DNA of 64,000 nucleotides from Blasia pusilla (taxonomy: Eukaryota), in NCBI GenBank assembly GCA_050084515.1, contig CM114271.1, forward strand, positions 28,086,001 through 28,150,000, written 5' to 3'. The notes beneath the pieces are model-generated. The model did not search any database and was not told the origin of the DNA. It saw only the letters and a list, made by a program, of their open reading frames with translations. A program made the position numbers and the translations under genes. Positions 19,972 to 53,366 of this stretch are shown here, piece after piece (within the stretch, counting starts at the first letter, position 1; each line of letters starts with the position of its first letter).

Positions 19972-22539
19972 AGACGATATTATAGTCATGTTGGAGTCCT
20001 TATCATGCAGGTAGGTTAACCGTGGAGTTAACCCAACCTCGTAGCGAGGCTTGTGGGTCTGGCTCTCCAAGCTACTCGTGATGGGCCAGCTATGGTATGC
20101 CTACAGGATTGGAAACTGGAGATGTATTTATTCCTCTGTCGATCTCAAGGCTCTTACAGACCCTGAACAAGCTTGTGAGGTTCCAGCACGGGAATGTACG
20201 AAATACCTCTTGGAGGTCTCGAGCAGGAATCGCACTCTGTCATTCCTGTAGCATCTGAACTGGAAACTTGGGGAGGGAATGCGTTGTCTGCGAAGTTAGC
20301 GGACAAATGCAACTTATCCCAGATCTGCTGCGCCATGAATATACTTGACATTATCTTTTCTAGAAAAGTCAGTAATCGTCGTGACTAACTAAATCCTTCC
20401 CTCCCTTGTGCATAATGTGAAAGCTTTGGATCTTCACCAGATTTTCTGTTCATCTCTTGGATCCTCTTCTAGTTTAGTCAATACCTACCGCTTATCTGTA
20501 CGTATTGACAAAACTCTGTGGTTTCGCACTTTCGGACCGATCATGAATCGTGAGAAATTTGGGAGCTAGGAAATTTGAAGCAGCAATGTAATTTTTAAAC
20601 GGAAGGGAAGAGTGTTCCCCACTAACGTGTTGACGATCTAGATGTGGTCACCCTCCAAAGATATATTGAAAACCAACCGATGGACATGATGTTCTTTTCG
20701 GCGGACCCGTGGAAAAGCCATCTGTATTTTCTTCGTTAAGCGACCCTGCCACCGGGCAAAGGACCCGGGAATGGTAAGAGGTTTGCACGATGAAGGAGGG
20801 GAGATGTGCAAATTACAACGACAGCTGAAAGCTCCCAGGGGAAGTGGACTTACAACTTGGGAACAGTTCTCACACTACCCTCGTTGCAGGAATGGAGAAA
20901 AGGGTTTCATGGTCAGAAACCCTAGGAGTCGAAGCGGCACTAGAGCAGGTTCATGGTGAAGCAGATACAGTATTTCCCATGAAAAAAAACGTAGTCACTT
21001 GACTTGACGGTGTATATTTGCCCGCTCTCCCTTTGAGTTGTGATCTAGTCGAGGATCCATTTCGAATATTGACGGTGTATATTTGCCTGCTCTCCCTTCT
21101 TTTCACTTTGGAATACTGTAGGATTGTCCAAATTAAGAATCTCGGGACTTGCATTTGCGAATGATTTTATGCGTTAGAAGGTTTGTCTTGGAGAACAATC
21201 TTGGTGATAGGGGTCTAGATTGTCTGAAATCAGTTTTAGCATTCCCTAACCACGGTGGGGTTATTTCCTGGTCAACTTTGAAATATGTGGACTTGAGGTT
21301 CCTAAGTTGTCCATTTAAAAGAAATGTGAACACAATTGAACACAAATATATTGAAACTAAATGTGAACTTTTGCTTTTGCTGGGGCTTGATTTTCTAAGA
21401 AAAAAATTGTATGTTTCACCAATTGTTGGATGATGATAAAAGGACAAAAGTGCATAAACATGTGGAAGCATGGATTTTGTCTTGTCATATTGAACAAGTC
21501 TTTTGAAGTTTTAATATTATTGGAGAAAATTTTCTTGAATTGTCCACTACTTGATATTATTCAACAACATGACTTAAATACTTTTGTAGAGGGAATATTT
21601 AAGAAATTTTATTGGCATTTAGAGAACCTTGATATGTTAACATGATTGACTCTCTTGATGTGGAAAAGAATTACGAACTTAAGCTCACAATTTTGTCAAC
21701 AAGCTTGCTATTTGATCGAATGATAGTCCCATTGTTGACTTCCTTCATACTCGAATCATAAGGAAACAATCTCATAACAAAGCACAAAAGGGGAGAGTCA
21801 ATTTGTAGAGAAATATTTTCTCACTAATTTTTGCCAAGTGAAAATTGGGTGCTCAATAAGCCAATCGGAAAATAATATTGCACTACTGAACAATATGGGG
21901 TGTCATAATACCCCTATCCGGGATTTTATTTTAGTGTCCCCAGATCTTTCTGTCCGGGACTTGCCCGATCCCAAACGGATAGTTTGGGATCGGGCAAGTC
22001 TCGGACCCGTTTTGGCGCCCACGGGACGAATCATTCCCGTCCCATTTGCATTTCTTCTCGGGTAGCCCGTGGATTTAAGGCTGGCCGATGACCATACACG
22101 GGCCAACGCAAAACTGCCGCCCCGTCCTCTTCCGGGTTAGTCGAGTGACTTTCCGGGTGGCCCCCTAACCTGGACGATTCCGGATAGGCACTAAATTGAC
22201 ATCCCCTAATGACTTCTCCTGCAGCTAGTTGATCACCGTCACTCAAGGGATGATAGAGTCCCAGGCTATCTGGTCATGGTACGCGATGTTGGACCAAAAC
22301 CTGCACACATGGATGCGGGAGGGGGTGCTTCTTATGAACACCTCACCTATGTTGAGAGATGTTTTTACGAACCTCAAGAACATTGAGCGCAACGTGGCGT
22401 AGGAGAACATAGCCACCATGGGTTCTAGGCGAGAGCAGACACGATTGCCTGCATCACCAATGCAGCAAGGTGGATTCCAAGATAGGTCTGTGGCACCACG
22501 AGCTCAGGGAGAATACCCGGAGGCTGTGCCATAAAAGCT

Positions 22540-22850: not shown

Positions 22851-25800
22851 CTTGTTGCCCTTGTCCTTGCTGATATTCAATTTTTTGGAAAAGAGGCATG
22901 AAATTGACAATAGTTGAGCTTCACAGAAATGGCAAGTAGCGAGGGTTCCTTGAGAGGGCGTGGAAGGAGATCTACCCCATTGATTACATCAACATTGCCC
23001 CGTGTCCGTCGGACCCACAAAGTGTCTCGTGCCCTTTGGGTCGTAAGTCCTTCGGACGCTTCTTTAGCTTTACGGGGACTTACCCAAAAGGACAGTCCTA
23101 GATGATGCATCGCCGTTCATTCCACCTGGTTCCAACCCAATTGTGCTTAGTGATAGTAGCTTGGATGATTACAAGAAAGTTGCTCCAACATTACACGGTG
23201 TCTACAGCCGCTGTGGGGGCGGGAAACCATAGCTCCAGATAGCCGGTTTGACCATTGGGGGGCACCGCCATTTCCTATGGGCGGTAGAAAGAGTACAAGT
23301 CTCAAAAAGACGAGGTGAGTTGTATCCATTTCTCACAAATAAATGTCGAAACGGGAGAAGGTGACATTTTCAAAACCTGTCCATCGTTTGGTCCATTCCA
23401 ACTCACGAACTTCCGCATCCCTCATGACGATTTAGGGCCAGTTTCCATGGAAAATATGGCCCAAACCAACCTCCTACGTCCGTGTCGCTCATGGTCGATC
23501 GGCGCGCGCAGAGGAAATTCGGAGAAGGGGCTCGCGACCTTCAAAGCCATCACAATTCGATGCGAGTCAACGGAAGCCCTTGTCCCTCTTCATCTCTGCA
23601 GCTAGCTGGCGCCGCAGGTTCACAGGTTCACCTCCTTGCTCTGCGGCATGGGAATCCGACGAAAGCTGGCTGCTGGCCAGTGGATATAGGATCCACGATT
23701 CGATCAGGGCATGGGGTTTGCACCTGCAACTCGTGATGGATATCTCCGGGGATGACAACGGGGAAAGGAAGTGTCAGATCGGTCACTCCGTTTTCAACAG
23801 AAACTGGAATCCGTCGACCTCGAGGCTCGAGCTGTCAATCGTGAGCGGCACTTACACGAGAGCGATTTCAGATGGCAAGCTTGCAATCGTGGGATCCTCC
23901 CAAACTGCTCCCCTGCGATGGAGCTTCTACGACATACGCTCTCACGAGCGGTTCGTACTCTCGCTTTTCATGTCTGCAACAAAGCATCGGAATAAGAGCA
24001 ATGTACTATGGACCGACTTCCACGAATCCACTTCCTTGTCCCGACTCCTCCACGTCCAGGGCATCTACATAACAAGCCCGCCCCGCCCCGCCCCATCTCA
24101 TCAATCAATCAAATAATGGAATGTCGCGGACCAGCAAGAATCTGCGCCTCGCCCCACGTGGTATCTGAAGCTCCGCTATTCGATGCCCCCCGTACGAGCA
24201 GGAATCCTGCAACATGGGCCCCGCGGCCCCCGCCCCACATGGCTCGGACCTCCAGAATCCAGATTTGAGTTTTCGAGCATAGCCTCCAGGGATTCAGACT
24301 AGTGCCGCCATTCTTCAAGAGCCAACCAGCACAATCTAGAAGTTGTTTTGTCACCGGTTCCTTTGTTTAGTCTTGACAGGGATCCGCCTAAACTTCAAGG
24401 CCGGAATTGGATAGGAGTGCTTTGCCATAGAGCGTCCCTCACCTTGAAGCGTTACTTAATCGTCTCTCTTGATTTTGGGAGTATGGATTACTTTGAGGAA
24501 GTTTTCTTTCTCAACTTCTAATTTTAAAAGTGTTTGAAGTTCCGGTGCGTATCTTCGGTATTATGTATTGTTACCGGAGGTTGGAAAGTATTGTTACCGG
24601 ATTTGCAAACACTTCTTTGTTTGACACGCGGCAACCGGACAACAAGAACAATATTTTCATTCTATGGGCAACAATAAAAAAAACTGTATGATGAGTCCCT
24701 GCACTTCTACATGGCACGGGCTGCAAACCAGTTTTATTTGGAGACAGTGCATGTTAGAAGGAGGATACGATGTATATACCAATGCAATCAAAAAAAGTTA
24801 GTGGGCCAATTCAAATCTGTTCATTTTAAGATGTTGTTTAGTTAAAGTAATAATCCTAGGAGAGAAGGTTAAATATTTCATATAGAAGGGAAAATCTAAA
24901 AAATAATTTCCAACTAAAGTTTCATTAGAAAATTTTGCTCCAAGTACTACTTCTTTCATTATAGCTCCCATTCTTGTAAGGTAAACATTCTTTTTTTTAA
25001 CTGTTTTATCAAGTCCCTTTTGCTATTCTTTATTCAAGAAATCCACTCCTCTATTTTGAAATTCTTAAAAACCCTAATCTTTTGGCTAATCTCTTTGTTA
25101 TATATATAATCATTATAAACCTTGAAATATGTATATGCACTTTCCCATAATTAGTACTAGCTTTAGCTTGTGTACGAATTAAAAATAAGTCTGAATTACC
25201 CATCCAAAATGTACAATTGACTTCTAGTGATCTTATTGGTTTAGACAATGAGCGATTCTATTGGTTTAAAAGGACATGTGTCAAGAGGAGAGAGGTAATC
25301 TCAAATGAAGAGACACTCTCCAATAATAATATAAATTGAAAAAACTTTCAATTCCCCTTCCCAATTGTCCTACACTTTTCTTCTTAATTTTAAATCACTC
25401 TTCTTTCCACCTTGTCTATGCTTTTCTAATCTTTGATTCTTGCCCCATTTTTGTAGAAAATTAATTAAATAATCCCTTATGAACCTCCCCTAAACACCCC
25501 TTCCATCTTGGCTCCCTCCTTCACCTTCTTATTTTCAGAAAAGGAATTGGCCTCCCTCCCTTAATTTCTTTTTAACCGCTAACTTTTAAATATTTTATAA
25601 CTTAAGAAAATACTAACCCTCACCCCTCCCACTTCCATATTTTAGAAAATAAATTAAAATACATACCCCACTATATGCTACTTCTTTTTTTCAAGAAAGG
25701 AAAAGGTGTCCCCTCTTTGTTCTTAAATTACCCCCGAATAGGATACATATATTGTAATTATACGTGCACTTTCCCATACAAGTATAGATATTTTAACTAT

Positions 25801-25907
25801 TTTTGTAGGTATTTATTTGGATGTCACAAATCATGCATCATGCAAGAACTCACTATCACATGAGGATATCTTGTCGTGCACATACTCCCTTAAACGCCCG
25901 TCTTTTG

Positions 25908-28900
25908 TGTCGTGTGCATATATATCGCTACACAACATACATGGCTGGTCACATCTACACCACACAACACCGATCTTCCCCACACACGGGTAGATCCAGA
26001 TATATACTGAAATCAACCCATACATATACATGGAGATCACACAACAAAAAGAAAGAGTAGTAAAAACGGCACACCCGGCCTAAAACTCCACTCCTCAATC
26101 TACATCGGCATATCGAGCCTCGTCCACCGTGCGCTATTAAGGAATCCAGACACACATACACGAGAGGTACTCCAATGGCCCAACATGAGAAAGATGGCTT
26201 AGGAAAGCCATGTTCCTCTCTTATATAGGGTTGGGAAGAGCCAAAAGGCTCTTCCCCTTAGAATAGCCATCCCCTTGGTAACACGCGCGCACAGGTTACT
26301 AGGGGCGTGTGACCTGGTCAACAAGTCATCCGGCTGTGAAAGACCTCAACAGGAAAGTTGTCAGAAACGACGTTCTTGACATAATGGACCTATCCTCAAC
26401 CTCATCCGACACTGTGGGATAAAGTTACACTCAAGATAGTCCGCTGGCTCCTACGCCCTATCCACGATAGATCTCGGCCTATCGGCTACTCAGATGTGAC
26501 ACTTTTCATGCACATAAATATTGCTACACAACATACATCGCTGGTCACATCTACACCACACAACACTGATCTTCCCCACACACGGGTAGATCCAGACATG
26601 TACAGAAATCAACTCATACATATACATGGAGATCACACAACTGCCCCCCTAGTTGGCAGTTGGATCCCCCTAACTCCAGATGGAAAATATCACATCTCTC
26701 TGACATGACCTACTACCCTATACAGATTCGTACACATTCATTGTCCCGTGGGAACTACATCAAGAGGGGGGGTCATACATGACATATGCCACCCTCAAGA
26801 ACAACCATCACATACCAACATGGTGGCTGCACCCCTCGCAGATCCACACACTATACACCTCAAGCTTGTAGGTACCACTGCCAAGCTCGGATCCACTGTC
26901 CCGTCTACGTTCGGAAGATGACATGGCGTACAATTGCGCACATGATCCATCCCTCCAACATGAGGACTCCGGTCGGTAATACCTTGCGCACACGTAGGAT
27001 CGTGCCCCCTACAGTGACATCTAGCGTGGTGGGTGCCGCTTGCTGTAAATACACATAATCTCCAAGATGAAAACTCCTAATACCGGGATGATAACCTCCT
27101 TCACCAATTGTTGCGTATCTCTATGTATCTCTCTGTTGAGCAATAGCTAAGTTCTCAAAGGCCATAAGCATAACTCTACAAAAAATCTCTGCCTTCTGAG
27201 AACACGCTTGTACCCACACATCCGGATCATCAAGATTTAACACCTCTGCCATGTCACGTCAAATAGCTGTAGGTAAATCTGGCTCTCTCCCAAAGAGCAA
27301 AAAGTACGGTGAAAATGACGCCAAGGATGCCTGCCGACTAAAGCGATAACCCATAGCCAACCATGGCAACTGTAGGTCCCACTCCCTCAACTTTCCTTGC
27401 TGCAAGCCATACTTGCGCAATCCTCTCTTCACCATCTGTACTACTCTCTCCGCCAACCCATCCGCCTCAGGATGATCTTTGGAGGTGGTGCAGTGATGTA
27501 TCAACGCCTGATCACACAAGGTGTGAAACTCTCCCCTGAACTCGGTACCCTCGGCGGTCAACACCTCCGCCAGTGCACCAAAATGACTAACTCTATCCAC
27601 TTGGAGAAATGCTCCACCATGACCAACAAGTACCTATGATGACGCCCCGTCAATGGCAAAGGTCCCGCAAAGTCTAAACTCCACCGATAACCTAAACCCA
27701 TAATCGAAAAAGGATGTAACAGTGGAGTGGGAGCATTGAAGGATGCTCACACTCTGTCACATACCATACATCTGGCCACAAACTACTGTACCCCAGTATG
27801 CATGCCGTGCCACCAATATTGAATCTGGAGTAAGTTGTAAGTACGCTTCACTCCAAAATGTCCCAACTCCTCATGGGCATGTCGCACTACACGTGCTTGT
27901 TGGGAAGGATGAGGTACCACTCGTATCTTACCATCTCCCCATACCCGCAAAATGTGAGTCCCCTCCCACCTAAACCTCCTGGCTCTTTGTAGGATCTGAT
28001 CCCACTCCCTAGCACTCACTATGCTTGCTATGACGCCAGTGCGCAAGAACTCCACAACCTCCACATCTTCATGGATATCACGACCACCTGTCGCCTCCTC
28101 ACTGACCTCCACATCCAAAGACTCGTCATCCAACCCCACCACTGGAGTCATCACCTGTGGCTGACCTACCATAGTCAACCAACAAAGATAGGTAGATACT
28201 TGCCAACCGGGCGCCATCTACTTATCACTCTCTCTCTGCCATCGACCTTCTGTGTCGTCTCTCTGACTCGGACATGGGTTACAACTCAACCCATCCGCAT
28301 CTTGGTTCAGCCTGCCTGGCCTATGAACCACCTCAAACTCATACTCATGTAGTAATAGAGCCCACCTGGCAAGCTTTCCCGTAAGCTTGTGATAAGTGTG
28401 AAAGGGTTGCCGAATAAATAACACCTGAAATGTGCCACGGCCCACACTACAACCAAGCACTCTCCCTCATAAGAGCTATACTTTTCCTCTTCAATGTTGT
28501 TTGATCGGCTCGCGTAAGCCACAACAAACTCCCTCTCCTCGTCATCTCTCTGAGTAATCACTGCTCCTAGACCCAACATGCTCTAATCCGTATGTAACTA
28601 GAATGGGGGATCCCTAATCGGTCTTTGAAAAATGGGTCAGGACGTCAACCTATCCTTGAGCTCCTGAAATGCTCAATCCTGATCATCTCCCCATAACCAA
28701 ACCTGATCAAGTCTCGTCAACAAGGTCAAAGACTTTGCGATTGCACTAAAACCCTTGACATACCGTCGATAGAAGTTTTCCAGTCCAAGATACGCTTGGA
28801 CTCAACTCACATCTGTAGGGCGTGGAATTTGCGCAGTAGCCTCCACCTTCGTCAACTGAACGCCTAACCCACTCGGGTATATGGTGTGTCCCAAGTACTC

Positions 28901-30614
28901 AATCTGCTCCTGAAAGAATCTGCACTTGCCTGGATTGACCATCAGAGGACCCTCCAAGTGCTGGAACAACACCTTCCATGCTATGAAAGGGTTGAACCGT
29001 GTTGGGGTCCGTATCTCCTGGAAGTCGCACCACGTGTCCAACTCCTGGATAAAATCATCTTAATCGATGGTGCCCACTACACCCGAGAAATGACGCATGC
29101 TCCGATGGCCCATGTCGTCCATCTCCTGCCAAGTGATACTGGCTCCGTCTGCGATCTCGTCACCAGACCCGGTGTCCACTGATAACGATCCAGCCATGGA
29201 TGGATATCGAGGTAGCTCCTCACTCGTAACCCCTCAGTATCTCAATCCACTCCGTGTCACACCACTACTAGTGCTCGTACTACCCCATTCTTCCTGACCC
29301 TAGAAGAATGCCGTGATGACAACCCTATCTCACCCGCTCAAGCACTCAGACTCACCAAGAGTCTCCCACACTCCTCACTAGCTCACCTATGCTAACGTCA
29401 ATCCCGTGATGACACACCCGGCCTCACGCACACTCAACACTCTGGTCTGGCTCACCATGAGCCTCCCAACTGACTCACCTAACCTAGCGACACTCTCGGG
29501 TCATACATGCGACCCCTACTCGGAAACCTCCGTATATCCACCACATGCTACACATGAAAAGAATCTACACTCGTCATCATCATTGCACCCACCTAGCAGT
29601 AGCTACTACCCGATACCCAACACTCTCAATCACACACGACAAGTGCGGGAAAAGGGACTCGAATGGGTAACGTGATCACGCCCTCCAACCTACGTACCGT
29701 CAACACTCACTCCTCCATGTGGTATGGCAACCTTTGCAACACGACACTCTCCTCCTTTGGGAGGGGTGTGGGTTTGCATCCGCACCTAGCCGCCTCCGCA
29801 ACCCTAACCGCCTCCGTGACCCGGCCGCCTCCGCGATCTAAACCTAGCCCGCCTCCACGCCCAAGCCGCCTCCAGGAAAATTCTTTCCTTCCTGCTCTTT
29901 CCCGACACACCCGCTTGCGTACACTCGACGCCACACCGCGCGCTACACCTGACTACTGTCCCCCGTCACCCCGCACCAAAGAAATCTGCGAAAAATAGAG
30001 AGCACTTCCGCGCATGGCCTTCCGAACTCAAAGTGACCAACACAACGCCAAGCAGCATCTCCAGGGGCTCCCAACCAAGGCAACTCGCTTGCCTACCTGC
30101 AAACAACAAATTCCCACCAGCCCCTGACATCTTTCTCATGTAAAAATAAAGAGTAGTAAAAACAACACACCTGGCCTAAAACTCCACTCCTCAATCTACA
30201 TCGGCATATCGAGCCTCGTCCACCCTGCGCTATCAAGGAATCCGGATGCTAGCACCCTAGTCCTATCTCACACACATACAAGAGAGGTACTCCAATGGCC
30301 CAACATGAGAAAGATGGCTTAGGAAAGCCATCTTCGTCTCTTATATAGGGTTGGGAAGAGCCAAAAGGCTCTTGCCCTAAAAATAGCCATCCCCTTGGTA
30401 ACATGCGCGCACAAGTTACTAGGGGCGGGTGACCTGGTCAACAAGTCACCCGGTTGTGAAAGACCTCAACAGGAAAGTTGTCAAAAACGACGTTCCTTAC
30501 ACAATGGACCTATCCTCAACCTCATCCGACACCGTGGGACAAAGTTACACTCAAGATAGTCGGCTGGCTCCTATCCACGATAGATCTCAGCCTATCGGCT
30601 ACTCAGATGTGACA
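25908..30614 (-). mobile_element. Ty3/Gypsy retrotransposon (internally deleted) with permuted/split LTRs
   Basis: Minus-strand pol pieces: RT C-terminus (NPGKCRFFQEQIEYLGH), RNase H (LGLGAVITQ..VAYASRS..YSSYEGECL), HHCC (HEELGHFGVKRT), integrase core (EGTEFRG..HPEADGLAERVVQMVK), PHD finger. Repeats: 25908-26043 matches 26504-26640, and 26047-26501 matches 30142-30614. PPT at 26641-26650. Exact left end is ambiguous (25902-25910) and there is no clean TSD. Confidence 0.92.
30128..30138 (-). promoter_or_regulatory. Self-priming primer-binding site (TGAGAAAGATG)
   Basis: Immediately follows the LTR-terminal CA (30140-30139) and is perfectly complementary to 30316-30306, which begins 31-32 nt downstream of TATATAA (30347-30341). 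Confidence 0.8.
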
Positions 30615-31414
30615 TATGCGTTCAACACATCACGCTCTCCTTGCTAATCCGTTGTCAAATCCTTTCACATTAGCCGTGAGTTGAGTCAGCCAGCCTTGCG
30701 TTGCTCAAGTCTCTCGTCATCCTTCAAACTCAACAAATCTAGACGAGGTCGAATATCAACCTAACCCCTTACTCCCCAACATAACCAAGTTATTCAAGAC
30801 TTGGGATACACTTCCTTGACATTTATAGAGTGAATACATATGAGTGCCAACATAAATTGGTTGTCATATGCATAAGCTCAAGATCCACCTAACTATGAAT
30901 CCTAATATATCTACAAATGAATGGTTGGACATATCCCAATATAAAAATCAACATGCTATATCATCGTTCATTGAAGCATCCACTCAAGATATGCAATACT
31001 GTAGCAACAAGAGAAAAATTGAATCAATAATGAACTCTCATTGTACAACCTCTGATCAATCCTAACCCATTCTTACTTGAGAGAATCAAGGCTCAATACA
31101 ACAACATACCTGTAGCATATTATATATAGATCCTAACATTAGCCTTATCTAAGGAAGATGAGTTTCAAATGAGCCTCGCCCAAGGAATACCCCCTATGCA
31201 AAGGATCATGGAGTACACAATATTCTTACTCTCCAACCAATCCTTCACATAGTCTTCTCACAAGATAACATAATCTATCATGTTGGCATACTAACCTTGA
31301 GCTAAGACTTCACTTGCTCACAATATATAGACATCTCACATGTTTATGAGGCGCATTAGTTTTGGATCACTATTGAATTTGATTGGCCCAAACAACAAGC
31401 GTGGATTTATTTAG

Positions 31415-31899: not shown

Positions 31900-33330
31900 C
31901 TCATCTTCTTGGGTATCCTTCATATATGCTTCACAAATCTTTCTTTCCAAATCTATTTCTTTTGGAAACATGGCTCACAACACTTACATCATGGATGACA
32001 TTATCTTTCTCCGACTTGTGTCTAAACCCTATCGGTTCCACATTCATAAGCACCAAGTTATCATGTCATCGCAATTTTTCAATGTAATGTAATCCTATAT
32101 CTCATAATACTTAAGAAATATGTTATCAGTGTACACTTAAATGTGATGAAACCCCAAGAAATGACGACACTTCCTCAAAAAATGAACCAATACATACAAC
32201 TCTTTCTTATGAGTAGGTCATATGCGCTGCATGTTCTTGACCTTCTTGTTTTTGTACACAATATGTCTCCTTCTTGCACCAACATTCTTACAATCACATG
32301 GTCACTAGCATCTGTATGCACTTGGAACGGTTTGTAAAACTCTAATAATCTTAACATTTACTCATGTGACAAGATTTCTTTTATTTTCGTAAATATTGCA
32401 TCAAATTATTTGGTCCATGTGATGTTGGAAAAATTTGGGGTCCAATCCATAAGAGGTCTCACTATTCCTAAGAAGTTCCTCACATACGTCTGATAGAATT
32501 GGAGTGATTCTATGAACCTTTTGATCTGCTTCATTGTGGAGGGAGATTGCCAATCAAAAATAATGGTAGCTTTGATCCTCTCCATATCAAGATTGAATTT
32601 TTCTGCACCAATCGATCACATGTTCCCATAACTTGATTTCCTCAAGCTAAATTTTCTCTTCTCTACATTGCCACATAGCGTGTTCGATCTAATGTTCACA
32701 AAATCACCTCGAAGTAATGACATACTCATCCATCTCCCTATGAAAGATGGATTTCTTCAATGTGATGAATGTTAAAGACGCATTACACAAACCAAAAGAC
32801 ATCACTACAAACTCAAGGGAATCATATCTCATCCTACACGTAATCATCTCCACATTAGCCTCCATATGAAGATCTAGTGATAGCCTAACTTTTAGTCGAT
32901 CCTATTGAAGTAATTAACACCCAACATCCTATCGGAGAGGTCATCCATCCACCGTCACTTCATTTAGCATCCAATAGTCAATACATAATCTCAATTTCCC
33001 ATCCTCCTTCTTCACAAAGAGAATCGGTGTTCCACAAGGTTACTTACTTGTTTGGTTGTATCCCTTCTTGAATAGCTTACCCATGGCCGATTGGTTCTTC
33101 AATTCCACAAGCTCAAATTGATTGAGTCTATACGGAGCATTTGAAGGTGGTTGAAAACATGATATCATTTCAATCTTGTCACATATTTTTCGCTCCTAGC
33201 TGGTAATTCATTCAAAAGTGAATTTGTAATATTTTTTCTTAACCAATCTGTGAAAGTATCCTCAAAAGTGACTCTTGATCTCTAAGTGTTTTGCTTGTAG
33301 TCTCTACTTGGCGCATCAAGAAAAGAAAGA
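31900..33330 (-). mobile_element. Highly decayed Gypsy RT-RNase H remnant (different family)
   Basis: KPFQVHTDASD (RNase H) at ~32300 and FVVMSFGLCNA (RT) at ~32800; many stops; boundaries approximate. Confidence 0.8.
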
Positions 33331-52669: not shown

Positions 52670-53366
52670 TTTTCGTGCGCATACACATCGCTACACAACA
52701 TACATCGTTGTCATCGAACACACACACAAACACACACGATCCCATGCTAACTCATGGCATCCATACACAGAGGCGAGAAGTACCAAAATATCTCCAATAA
52801 AGTAAGATCCAATCTCTCTCTACACCATCTCACACCATAGCTCTCAAAAGTGTCCACTCTCTCTCATGTCAAACCAAACCCACTCTCCTAATGAGAGGCT
52901 TGGGTTACATTCACAAGGCAAGGAATCATAGCTCGGCCGCCTCATGCCAAGAGGTTCAACAAAGAGAGAATGAGCTCTCAAGCTCTCTCCTTGAGGTATA
53001 CCCCTCCCCTCTCCCAAGCTCTCTCCATGGTAACCTATTCTCCCAAGTCACCTCCTTGGCTCTTGACCTGATGTAGGACGTCAAGGGCCACTTACCAAAA
53101 ATATAAAGTCGATCATATACTCAGACTAGTACTTACCTAAAATAGTAAGTTTCTCAATATGGCTCCAAATGAGCCGAAATGAAGGGGAAACCTGCTCTCT
53201 CAGGTTTCCCGAGGCCTCAACAGGTCATCCTCAACCTCTTGGGTCTATCCTCCACTACTCGTGCAGACGCTCTGCTAGATCCTACCGATCTATCATAACA
53301 ATCGTGACAACGCGCACGGGTAGTCTCAGAGATTTGTACCTATACGGGTAGTCTCTATTGTTGACA
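52670..53366. mobile_element. LTR-derived insert related at both ends to the permuted LTR of 25908-30614
   Basis: Starts ttttcgtgcgcatacacatcgctacacaacatacatcg (cf. 26503 and 25908) and ends cctatacgggtagtctctattgttgaca (cf. cctatcggctactcagatgtgaca at 26501/30614). No TSD; the adjacent Helitron HUH motif is missing. Confidence 0.65.

What the first reader, a model, noticed from the sequence alone, without database searches (positions are those of the whole stretch)
25908..30614. Gypsy element with a circularly permuted (split) LTR: b-internal-a-b-a
Seen: on the coding (minus) strand the order is b(30614-30139), PBS, pol, PPT, a(26640-26504), b(26501-26047), a(26043-25908). PPT and PBS define the reverse-transcription LTR as a+b, yet the genomic ends fall at the internal a|b point, which has its own TGTCAC.../...CGACA termini. 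A b|a fusion at ~26044 resembles a 2-LTR-circle junction. Established: A1-ORFs-B1-A2-B2 split direct repeats are the hallmark of PAT/Ngaro tyrosine-recombinase retroelements that integrate circles, whereas Gypsy elements normally integrate linear cDNA at the LTR tips. Inference: this family may integrate a 2-LTR circle through att sites inside the LTR, although it encodes a DDE integrase and I see no recombinase here. I do not know of this layout for a Gypsy element, but could not check the literature.
Basis: partly seen in the sequence, partly recalled or inferred. Interest (0 to 1): 0.9.

Follow-up and report, generated by a model that had tools for sequence, protein, structure and literature searches.

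The report
Gypsy retrotransposon with permuted, split LTRs
This is a decayed copy of a bryophyte Gypsy-type retrotransposon lineage whose normal inserted form carries its long terminal repeat split and rotated (b-genes-a-b-a), which suggests its integrase cuts inside the repeat instead of at its tips.

Summary
The interior is a decayed, internally deleted Ty3/Gypsy pol: RT C-terminus, RNase H, H2C2+DDE integrase, PHD finger. No recombinase was found.

The layout is not a one-off. In related elements on metagenome contigs, 3 complete copies and 10 distinct 3' ends show b-int-a-b-a. All 14 distinct 5' ends start at the b start, and none is preceded by a. Of 9 complete elements, 8 carry perfect 4-bp target-site duplications outside the b start (TG) and a end (CA).

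A G-run polypurine tract precedes a1. A self-priming PBS abuts the b end: it is complementary to b about 30 nt downstream of the TATA box. So reverse transcription defines the LTR as a+b, and the inserted unit is a circular permutation of it.

The internal a|b joint is a CA-NN-TG palindrome. The b|a joint behaves like an LTR-LTR junction. How the permutation arises (circle or end-joining plus integrase cleavage) is inferred, not shown.

Precedent: de Mendoza et al. 2018 noted "DIRS-like repeats, Gypsy domains" for KnitGypsy-Dnmt3. I therefore call this a new member of a known kind. In my searches I found no mechanistic account of this layout.

The parts
30615..30618 (-). Left flank tetranucleotide (CATA), candidate target-site duplication
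   Evidence: It matches the right flank CAAA at 3 of 4 positions. Relatives have perfect 4-bp TSDs at the same two points.
30142..30614 (-). b1, the 5' copy of segment b. It starts with TG(TCAC). It holds a TATA box at 30347-30341 and the putative transcript start/self-primer at 30316-30303.
30128..30141 (-). Self-priming primer-binding site: 14 nt that are the exact reverse complement of 30316-30303 in b1 (and of 26196-26183 in b2)
   Evidence: 14-nt match, reached by 0 of 300 shuffles. The complement lies 31 nt downstream of the TATA start. Two other families show the same arrangement.
29198..30127 (-). Leader/untranslated region. 29732-30099 is low copy in the reads.
   Evidence: depth 56-226 against about 1000-2500 for the rest of the element.
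28940..29197 (-). Gag N-terminal remnant, joined by a deletion directly to the RT C-terminal part
   Evidence: P0011 residues 108-162 map to 29104-28940. (1487 reads break away behind 28935).
28224..28945 (-). RT C-terminal part and RNase H remnant, with stops and frameshifts
   Evidence: (RT_RNaseH E 6e-18)
26950..28217 (-). Integrase remnant: H2C2 zinc domain and DDE core
   Evidence: Integrase_H2C2 E 9e-11; rve E 0.0035. (66% identity to P0005 residues 420-643).
26732..26947 (-). C-terminal PHD-finger remnant of the integrase
   Evidence: 67% identity to P0005 residues 651-722. PHD PF00628 in relatives.
26642..26652 (-). Polypurine tract (run of six G) immediately upstream of a1
   Evidence: Conserved in all 17 related loci tabulated.
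26504..26641 (-). a1, the internal copy of segment a. Its last 7 nt carry two substitutions relative to the family form.
   Evidence: (at 26505 most reads carry the other base).
26502..26503 (-). Two-nucleotide spacer of the internal a|b joint (CA-NN-TG palindrome)
   Evidence: The same architecture appears in 5 families.
26046..26501 (-). b2, the 3' copy of b
25908..26045 (-). a2, the terminal copy of a, ending in CA. The b2|a2 joint at 26046/26045 is LTR-LTR-junction-like.
25904..25907 (-). Right flank tetranucleotide (CAAA), candidate target-site duplication

Best explanation
The element is an old (repeat copies about 6% diverged), internally deleted copy of a very abundant Ty3/Gypsy family in a liverwort-like genome. 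It belongs to a bryophyte clade with the gene order gag-protease-(DNMT3-like)-RT-RNase H-DDE integrase-PHD. The regular inserted form of that clade is b-internal-a-b-a.

Shown:
- The inserted unit is bounded by TG (b start) and CA (a end), with a short terminal inverted repeat (TGTC...GACA), and is flanked by a 4-bp target duplication. That is the mark of a DDE integrase.
- The polypurine tract precedes a.
- A Tf1-like self-priming PBS follows b.
- Reverse transcription should therefore yield linear cDNA a-b-internal-a-b, and the inserted form is a circular permutation of it.

Inferred:
- The integrase recognises the internal a|b joint, a CA-NN-TG palindrome that mimics joined LTR ends. It cuts both strands there, which produces both processed ends at once.
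- The original cDNA tips (b end and a start) are joined to give the b|a joint. This happens either beforehand, as a 2-LTR circle, or afterwards by host end-joining.
- Cutting in the 5' LTR copy gives b-internal-a-b-a. This is the only form whose transcript again carries a, the a|b joint and the 3' b.

My confidence in the structural part is about 0.85. My confidence in the cleavage/joining path is about 0.45.
For: Window
- The repeats and their order are confirmed.
- The Gypsy pol with integrase is confirmed.
- The PBS at 30141-30128 is complementary to b at 30316-30303, 31 nt after the TATA start. No shuffle of 300 reached this match.
- The flanks are CATA and CAAA, a 3 of 4 match.

Reads
- Family depth is about 1000-2500 against about 1-2 for the unique flank.
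- The b-end-to-a-start joint is seen in 105 split reads plus contigs.
- At the a end, 1669 reads break away. Their consensus is weak (agreement 0.46) but b-start-like. About 1000 reads also cover the internal a|b joint.

Relatives (80 loci)
- b-int-a-b-a is complete in L004, L017 and L067.
- a-b-a is found at 10 distinct 3' sites across 16 loci, and in two more divergent families, L075 and L060.
- All 14 distinct 5' ends start at the b start, with unrelated flanks and no a upstream.
- Of 9 complete elements, 8 have perfect 4-bp TSDs and 1 matches at 3 of 4.
- The a|b joint reads ...GACA-NN-TGTC... in 5 families (and 16 for the window family).
- The b|a joint varies on its PPT side. L007 carries 2 extra nt and L004/L011 carry 4 extra nt, and in both cases these are the bases that follow the G-run. 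L004/L011 also have a 17-nt filler. This is expected if the joint is made anew from a PPT-primed plus-strand end.
- No tyrosine recombinase domain was found in the 16 ORF pieces scanned.

Precedents
- Foamy-virus and HIV-1 integrases cleave the palindromic LTR-LTR junction (abstracts of PMC1180852 and PMC1905944).
- The same repeat layout with Gypsy domains was noted for KnitGypsy-Dnmt3 (figure-legend passage of PMC5890265).
Against: - No second full copy from the window's own genome or family could be read. No genome is held, and reads gave only junction-level hints.
- The window's own TSD matches at only 3 of 4 positions.
- The leader next to b1 (29732-30099) is 5-40 times less deep than the rest, so the b1|leader context is typical only of a subfamily or is poorly conserved.
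- Among relatives, a shorter form b-int-a without the terminal b-a is commoner: about 20 distinct sites against 10-13. Its origin is undecided. It could be a1 x a2 recombination, or a primary product of cutting both a|b sites.
- A circle cut at random in either LTR copy should also give b-a-b-int-a. That form was seen at 0 of 14 5' ends, so an extra assumption (a kinetic or structural bias toward the 5' LTR copy) is needed.
- The PBS complementarity was not significant in 5 of 17 tests (L067, L004, L001, L029, L018, all decayed copies).
- No circular or linear extrachromosomal DNA was examined.
- A b-a unit of a sister subfamily in the window (52674-53311) has no recognisable TSD.
Confidence: 0.6

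Rival explanations
1. The layout is made by reverse transcriptase alone, and no circle is involved. After completing a-b-int-a-b, the plus strand jumps end-to-end from the b end onto the a start. This yields an over-length linear cDNA (a-b-int-a-b-a-b...). Integrase then processes the outermost internal a|b sites on each side. That gives b-int-a-b-a from over-length molecules and b-int-a from ordinary ones.
For: Both forms exist and both carry TSDs. The b|a joint is mostly precise, with a 1-nt overlap. This model explains the absence of b-a-b-int-a (0 of 14) without invoking a site-choice bias. It needs the same internal att site as the best explanation.
Against: The 17-nt filler at the b|a joint of L004/L011 looks more like end-joining than a template jump. 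No evidence for over-length cDNA exists. The model would make the replication-competent form depend on an error-like event.
Confidence: 0.25
2. It is a one-off rearrangement, truncated tandem or assembly artefact of a canonical Gypsy element in this window.
For: The window copy is decayed and carries several internal deletions. Its TSD is imperfect. The unique junctions could not be verified at about 1x read depth.
Against: The identical layout recurs at 10 distinct sites, with 3 complete copies, on independent contigs from other assemblies and in 5 families, and these copies carry TSDs. Both the b|a and the a|b joints are abundant in reads of the window's family.
Confidence: 0.03
3. It is a DIRS/PAT/Ngaro-type element in disguise. 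A circular cDNA is integrated by a tyrosine recombinase, encoded in a part I missed or supplied in trans.
For: The A1-int-B1-A2-B2 repeat layout is the hallmark of those elements. All papers listed by the search concern tyrosine-recombinase elements. The legend passage describes that layout for a DIRS element.
Against: A DDE integrase (H2C2+rve) is conserved in frame with pol. No Phage_integrase hit occurred in the 16 ORF pieces scanned. Perfect 4-bp TSDs flank 8 of 9 complete elements. Lack of TSDs in recombinase elements is my recollection, not a call result. The termini are TG...CA.
Confidence: 0.03
4. The true LTR is b alone (or b+a), and the extra a copy is a passive duplication with no role in integration.
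For: b by itself is bounded by TG...CA and is followed by the PBS. An LTR finder would report b...b as the LTR pair.
Against: The TSDs lie outside a2, not outside b2. The G-run PPT lies upstream of a1, not upstream of b2. a1 and a2 evolve in concert within each element (91-98% identical), while a differs between families, where only the last ~40-55 nt align at 76-85% identity. The a end carries the inverted-repeat partner of the b start in 5 families.
Confidence: 0.04

Closest known systems
KnitGypsy-Dnmt3 of Klebsormidium nitens (de Mendoza et al. 2018, PMC5890265)
   Same: Gypsy domain composition combined with a DIRS-like repeat layout. I read this only as the Fig. [quoted passage not shown] It has Dnmt3 inside Pol, as do the window element's relatives (P0012 against DNMT3A chains E 4e-8; PF00145 in Marchantia proteins).
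   Different: It is from a charophyte alga, whereas these are bryophyte relatives. Homology between the two lineages was not tested here. The passages I read do not mention TSDs, the PBS/PPT placement, the palindromic joint or any integration mechanism. Supplementary figures were not available to me. The window copy itself has lost the region where Dnmt3 would lie.
PAT/Ngaro/DIRS-like tyrosine-recombinase retroelements (and TOC1 of Chlamydomonas)
   Same: Split direct repeats in the order A1-internal-B1-A2-B2. The internal B1|A2 joint reproduces the joined element ends.
   Different: Those elements encode a tyrosine recombinase. That they make no target duplication is my recollection. Here there is a DDE integrase, TG...CA ends and 4-bp TSDs. 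TOC1's layout is recalled from memory; only the title of its paper was seen, as cited text found.
Tf1/Sushi (Tcn1) self-priming Ty3/Gypsy elements
   Same: The PBS directly after the LTR is complementary to the first nucleotides of the transcript rather than to a tRNA. Self-priming in Tf1/Sushi and the plant Tcn1 clade is described in passages of PMC6317226.
   Different: Those elements have canonical LTR-int-LTR insertions. Phylogenetic placement of this clade was not tested.
Integrase cleavage of the palindromic 2-LTR circle junction in retroviruses (foamy virus, HIV-1)
   Same: An integrase cuts an internal CA...TG palindrome and releases two 3'-processed ends (abstracts of PMC1180852 and PMC1905944). 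This is the reaction proposed here at the a|b joint.
   Different: In retroviruses the palindrome is formed by joining the LTR tips, and cutting it restores the ordinary linear genome. Here the palindrome lies inside the reverse-transcription LTR, so cutting it yields a permuted insertion. Nothing was tested biochemically.

Membership tests
Ty3/Gypsy (Metaviridae) LTR retrotransposon | Pol domain order RT - RNase H - integrase (DDE, with H2C2 zinc domain) | tested here: met
   Window: RT_RNaseH, Integrase_H2C2 and rve remnants in that order. Relatives: RVT_1, RT_RNaseH, Integrase_H2C2, rve.
Ty3/Gypsy (Metaviridae) LTR retrotransposon | Two identical LTRs, each spanning PPT-side start to PBS-side end, at the two ends of the insertion | tested here: not met
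   The PPT/PBS-defined LTR is a+b. The insertion has b alone at the 5' end and a-b-a at the 3' end, both in the window and in relatives.
Ty3/Gypsy (Metaviridae) LTR retrotransposon | TG...CA termini and a short (4-6 bp) target-site duplication | tested here: met
   Termini are TG (b start) and CA (a end). Of 9 complete relatives, 8 have a perfect 4-bp TSD and 1 matches at 3 of 4. The window copy matches at 3 of 4.
Ty3/Gypsy (Metaviridae) LTR retrotransposon | PBS next to the 5' LTR and polypurine tract next to the 3' LTR | tested here: met
   A self-type PBS abuts the b end (12 of 17 tests were reached by at most 4 of 300 shuffles). A G-run PPT abuts the a start in 17 of 17 loci tabulated.
DIRS order (DIRS1/PAT/Ngaro) tyrosine-recombinase retroelements | Split direct repeats A1-int-B1-A2-B2 (PAT/Ngaro type) | tested here: met
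DIRS order (DIRS1/PAT/Ngaro) tyrosine-recombinase retroelements | Encodes a tyrosine recombinase and lacks a DDE integrase | tested here: not met
   No Phage_integrase hit in 16 ORF pieces, and a DDE integrase is present. The scan covered large ORFs of decayed copies only.
DIRS order (DIRS1/PAT/Ngaro) tyrosine-recombinase retroelements | No target-site duplication (feature recalled, not from a call) | tested here: not met
   4-bp TSDs in 8 of 9 complete relatives
Streptophyte Gypsy-DNMT3 elements (KnitGypsy-Dnmt3 type) | Gypsy domains combined with a DIRS-like repeat layout | tested here: met
   The definition comes from the legend passage.
Streptophyte Gypsy-DNMT3 elements (KnitGypsy-Dnmt3 type) | Dnmt3-type cytosine methyltransferase domain inside Pol | tested here: inconclusive
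   It is present in relatives between protease and RT (P0012; PF00145 in 20 of 27 longer homologues). In the window copy that part of pol is deleted, so the copy itself cannot be scored.
Streptophyte Gypsy-DNMT3 elements (KnitGypsy-Dnmt3 type) | Common descent with the Klebsormidium elements | not tested
   No Klebsormidium sequence was available to me, and none was named among the hits.
Tf1/Sushi-type self-priming elements | PBS complementary to the 5' end of the element's own transcript | tested here: inconclusive
   The complementarity is 14 nt in the window, 10-17 nt in the L017 family and 15 nt in L014/L015. In each case it lies 26-31 nt downstream of a TATA-like motif. The transcript start itself was not measured.

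The most novel reading that the evidence does not exclude
A whole streptophyte clade of DDE-integrase Ty3/Gypsy elements has made the junction pathway obligatory. Its integrase does not use the tips of the linear cDNA. It cuts a CA-NN-TG palindrome inside the reverse-transcription LTR, on a circular or end-joined intermediate, so every replication-competent insertion is a circular permutation (b-int-a-b-a) of the cDNA. This would be natural, genome-scale evidence that a retroviral-type integrase can use junction-type substrates productively in vivo. It would also be a convergent route to the split-repeat architecture of tyrosine-recombinase retroelements.
Probability: 0.4. Interest if true: 0.85.

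Novelty: new member of a known kind. Interest (0 to 1): 0.68.

Why it matters
Textbook LTR retrotransposons and retroviruses integrate linear cDNA at the LTR tips. Whether LTR-LTR junctions or circles can ever be productive substrates has been argued since the 1980s (that history is my recollection).

Here a DDE-integrase lineage shows the relevant features at many independent sites: a 4-bp TSD, TG...CA ends, an inserted unit rotated relative to the PPT/PBS-defined LTR, and an internal copy of its own joined ends. This makes the question testable in tractable plants such as Marchantia, which carries many related genes.

There are two practical consequences.
- LTR finders will report b...b as the LTR pair. 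They will then mis-set element ends and insertion ages, miss the terminal a, and mistake b-a units for solo LTRs.
- Junction-based eccDNA assays will give false positives, because the LTR-LTR junction is already present in every chromosomal copy.

Tried and rejected
- Own-genome search: no genome is held.
- Exact LTR patterns found nothing in viral contigs or metagenome contigs.
- A protein-based scan of viral contigs found no relative.
- Earlier findings of this scan: three look-ups returned nothing.
- 'LTR = a-b-a' model (a as a terminal direct repeat inside one LTR): rejected, because none of 14 distinct 5' ends has a on either side of b1.
- tRNA-type PBS: I saw no TGG-type site after b1 or after a1 by eye. 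No tRNA comparison was run. This idea was replaced by the self-priming complementarity.
- A 9-nt complementarity between the a end and the leader of L004, noticed by eye, was not pursued. It is degenerate in L017 and L067 and does not include the 3' terminal bases.
- Idea that a is a GU-rich downstream polyadenylation element placed only after b2: G+T is 0.64-0.67 in a against 0.56-0.62 in b in three families, but not in L075 or L060. This is too weak to use.
- Several reverse-transcription-only schemes with the PBS or PPT placed at the a|b joint were worked through on paper. They predict a-b-int-a or b-int-a, not b-int-a-b-a, and they conflict with the PBS found next to the b end.
- Read-depth ratio a:b (about 1.3 by my rough apportioning of bins) could not separate the models.
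- The loose-end table shows only the best-supported rows, so ends at the b start could not be counted for the window's family.


Full report
**Observation.**
On the plus strand, a lies at 25910-26045 and 26506-26641 (92% identity). b lies at 26046-26501 and 30142-30614 (three blocks, 93-98%). blastn gives 88% over 480 columns including indels for b, and 93.8% over 129 for a. The first 24-25 nt of b and of a each occur twice in 64 kb, with none expected in 100 shuffles. Read on the coding (minus) strand, the order is b1 (30614-30142), internal (30141-26642), a1 (26641-26504), two spacer bases, b2 (26501-26046), a2 (26045-25908).

**What the interior is.**
The interior is a ruin of a Ty3/Gypsy pol. 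The longest open frame is 144 aa. Pfam finds RT_RNaseH (E 6e-18), Integrase_H2C2 (E 9e-11) and a weak rve hit (E 0.0035, below the curated cutoff) among 8 ORF pieces. tblastn with related proteins maps the following:
- a gag N-terminus at 29104-28940
- RT C-terminus plus RNase H at 28945-28385
- integrase at 28451-26950
- a PHD-finger tail at 26947-26732

Gag is joined directly to the C-terminal part of RT, so most of gag, the protease and the N-terminal half of RT are deleted. The closest proteins are liverwort proteins (Calypogeia fissa 56%, Marchantia polymorpha 46% in a variable linker). Some of the other hits carry a C-terminal PHD domain.

**The window's own family, seen through reads.**
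No genome is held for the window. I laid one raw WGS run and three sets of contigs of the same organism label on 25500-31000 at 80% likeness.
- The unique flank has depth about 1-2 and the element about 1000-2500, so the family has on the order of a thousand copies.
- 1487 reads break away behind 28935, and 1914 before 27589. This confirms that the window copy carries private deletions.
- The b-end-to-a-start joint appears as a split alignment (26641 to 30142) in 105 reads from 70 start points, and in contigs. A few variants are shifted by 1-9 nt.
- At the a end (25908), 1669 reads run into unlike sequence. Their consensus is weak (agreement 0.46) but resembles a diverged b start. About 1000 reads also cover the internal a|b joint (depth at 26505).
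- Both joints are therefore family features, not private to this copy.
- Against a simple picture, the leader at 29732-30099 next to b1 has only 56-226 depth.
- The table of loose ends shows only the best-supported rows, so ends at the b start could not be counted.

**Independent relatives.**
A profile of five related proteins plus the window ORF retrieved 192 related stretches from metagenome contigs, and 80 were kept as loci. Their pol is about 68% identical to the window's at the DNA level. Of the LTR parts, only the last ~40 nt of a align.

Self-comparison of 43 longer loci, then of the 3' region of all 80, and BLAST with a, b and leader of L067 and of L014 against all 80 gave these results:
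- Three complete elements (L004, L017, L067) are b-leader-internal-a-b-a.
- Sixteen loci have a-b-a after the integrase. Their flanks collapse them to 10 distinct insertion sites.
- Three further sites have a-b or b-a remnants.
- By the self-repeat scan, 17 of the 48 loci with at least 900 bp after the integrase match show the a...a pair (19 counting two partial pairs).
- Two more divergent families (L075 at about 53% and L060 at about 43% protein identity) show the same PPT-a-b-a arrangement.
- At the 5' side, 15 loci contain a complete b start followed by leader. These are 14 distinct sites, all with unrelated sequence directly upstream, and none with a upstream.
- No canonical (a+b)-int-(a+b) copy and no b-a-b-int-a copy was seen.
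- 24 of the 80 loci had no hit to these queries and were not classified, except L060, L074 and L075, which were caught by the self-repeat scan (L060 also had a single a hit).

A result that complicates the picture: about 20 distinct sites (23 loci) carry b-int-a, or int-a, followed by unrelated flank, that is, without the terminal b-a. Six of these are complete.

**Ends.**
In all nine complete relatives the unit begins with TG (mutated to TA or TC in three) and ends with CA. The four bases outside the two ends are identical in eight: TCTC, AAGG, CATA, TACA, TGTG, TGTT, ATTA, ATGC. In the ninth (L042) they match at 3 of 4. This holds for both the long and the short form. In the window the corresponding bases are CATA and CAAA (3 of 4).

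The b start and the a end form a short inverted repeat (TGTC...GACA) in all five families. The internal a1|b2 joint therefore reads ...GACA-NN-TGTC..., with NN = AC, GC, AT or GT. It is AG in the window copy and AC in the read consensus of its family. That is the form of an LTR-LTR junction of an element whose termini are the b start and the a end.

A staggered 4-bp duplication with TG...CA ends is the signature of a DDE integrase. Pfam found no tyrosine recombinase in 16 ORF pieces from the window, L015, L067 and L004.

**What reverse transcription should make.**
A run of six G (nine or more in L060) lies immediately upstream of a1 in the window and in 17 of 17 tabulated loci.

Immediately after the b end lies a segment that is the exact reverse complement of a stretch inside b. 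In each case that stretch sits 26-31 nt downstream of a TATA-like motif:
- 14 nt in the window (30141-30128 against 30316-30303, and the same in b2; TATA at 30347-30341)
- 10-17 nt in ten loci of the L017 family
- 15 nt between L015 and L014

No more than 4 of 300 shuffles reached the observed length in 12 of 17 tests. Five decayed copies (L067, L004, L001, L029, L018) showed nothing above chance.

This is the arrangement of self-priming elements, in which the first nucleotides of the transcript prime minus-strand synthesis. It is described for Tf1/Sushi and the plant Tcn1 clade in passages of PMC6317226.

The inserted unit b-int-a-b-a is a circular permutation of that molecule.

a1/a2 and b1/b2 are about equally similar within each element (91-98% and 86-92%), while a differs strongly between families. 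Both pairs are therefore renewed at each cycle.

**The b|a joint.**
In most of the 10 sites the b end is joined precisely to the a start, two bases after the G-run block. L007 carries two more, and L004/L011 four more, of exactly the bases that follow the G-run upstream of a1. L004/L011 also have a 17-nt filler. The left edge of a2 thus behaves like the 5' end of a PPT-primed plus strand joined secondarily to the b end. This is what a 2-LTR circle junction or an end-joining event would leave. The a|b joint, by contrast, varies only by transitions in NN and looks inherited.

**Mechanism.**
- *Shown:* the unit of insertion, its termini, the TSD, the positions of PPT and PBS, and the palindromic internal joint.
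- *Inferred:* the integrase binds the a|b palindrome rather than the cDNA tips and cuts both strands after CA. This creates a processed b-start end and a processed a-end at once. These two ends are inserted 4 bp apart. The old tips are joined either beforehand (a circle) or afterwards by the host.
- *Precedent:* foamy-virus and HIV-1 integrases cleave palindromic LTR-LTR junctions (abstracts of PMC1180852 and PMC1905944).

Cutting in the LTR copy next to the PBS gives the observed form. That form is also the only one whose transcript carries a, the a|b joint and a 3' b for the first strand transfer.

Cutting in the other copy would give b-a-b-int-a, which was never seen (0 of 14). I therefore have to assume a bias. 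One possibility is that the 5' LTR copy becomes double-stranded long before the 3' copy during plus-strand synthesis. This is conjecture.

The short form b-int-a can arise in two ways: by later recombination between a1 and a2, or by cutting both a|b sites of a linear cDNA. I cannot tell which.

A rival without circles also fits most data: an end-to-end template jump makes an over-length cDNA, followed by processing at the outermost a|b sites. I give it 0.25.

**Comparison with what is known.**
The repeat layout is that of PAT/Ngaro-type tyrosine-recombinase retroelements. All 15 papers listed for 'split direct repeats' concern such elements or mention the layout in passing (listing only).

One precedent for a Gypsy element exists. 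The Fig. 4c legend of de Mendoza et al. [quoted passage not shown] The earlier legend defines that structure as A-coding-B-A-B (passages). 'KnitGypsy' occurs in no other paper of the library.

A 2026 preprint refers to streptophyte Gypsy-DNMT3 as known, without discussing repeats in the passages I saw.

The relatives found here also carry a DNMT3-like domain between protease and RT (P0012 against DNMT3A chains, E 4e-8). Marchantia polymorpha has many such genes.

My searches for a mechanistic treatment found none.

**Verdict.**
The circle or junction step remains an inference. The window copy itself is a dead, internally deleted member. Because the layout has been noted in print for a related type of element, I rate it a new member of a known kind. 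The biology behind it is largely unexplored.

Noticed in passing
L067:7364-8767 (also Marchantia and Sphagnum proteins P0013-P0028): Relatives carry a DNMT3-like cytosine methyltransferase domain between protease and RT (E 4e-8 to DNMT3A chains; PF00145 in 20 of 27 longer homologues). This corresponds to the streptophyte Gypsy-DNMT3 type known from Klebsormidium, but I saw no description of it for bryophytes. The window copy has this region deleted.
   Followed up: partly
window 26732-26947 (-); L067:11012-12136: The integrase ends in a PHD finger (PF00628, E 2.7e-8 in L067; present in P0002, P0005, P0035, P0038, P0039) where chromoviruses carry a chromodomain. This suggests chromatin-mark-guided targeting.
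   Followed up: no
window 52674-53311 (-): A b-a unit of a sister subfamily. Its b start and its a variant match the loose-end consensuses. There is no pol next to it and no matching 4-bp flanks (GCGT against ATGC). It could be the solo-LTR equivalent of this lineage or a truncated 3' end.
   Followed up: partly
L001, L018, L031, L033, L042, L059 and about 14 further sites: A short form b-int-a, with no terminal b-a, is commoner than the long form and also has 4-bp TSDs (5 of 6 perfect). Whether it arises by deletion or is a primary product is undecided.
   Followed up: partly
window 29732-30099: The leader segment just inside b1 is 5-40 times less deep in reads than the rest of the element. 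It is either subfamily-specific or fast-evolving. It contains short GGAGGCGG-like repeats.
   Followed up: no
window 28389/28390 and 27589/27590: Most family reads carry about 35 extra nucleotides at 28389/28390 and diverge at 27589. These are small private deletions of the window copy inside RNase H and integrase.
   Followed up: no
window 22229-22498 (+) and 32127-32594 (-): Weak protein similarity to gag (30% identity, E 6e-7) and to RT (24%, E 3e-8) of the same superfamily. The element is flanked by remains of other retroelements. 30652-31000 is itself a low-copy repeat (depth about 20).
   Followed up: no
L058:3244-3876: a-b is followed directly by an inverted partial b (94% identity over 178 nt). 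This is a rearranged 3' end, possibly a nested or head-to-head insertion at the b end.
   Followed up: no
last ~40 nt of a in the window (25908-25947) and in L013, L018, L037, L038, L045: The a end is the only non-coding stretch alignable between the window's family and the metagenome families (82-85% over 37-40 nt). This is far more conserved than an integrase-binding tip usually needs to be. Its function is unexplained.
   Followed up: partly
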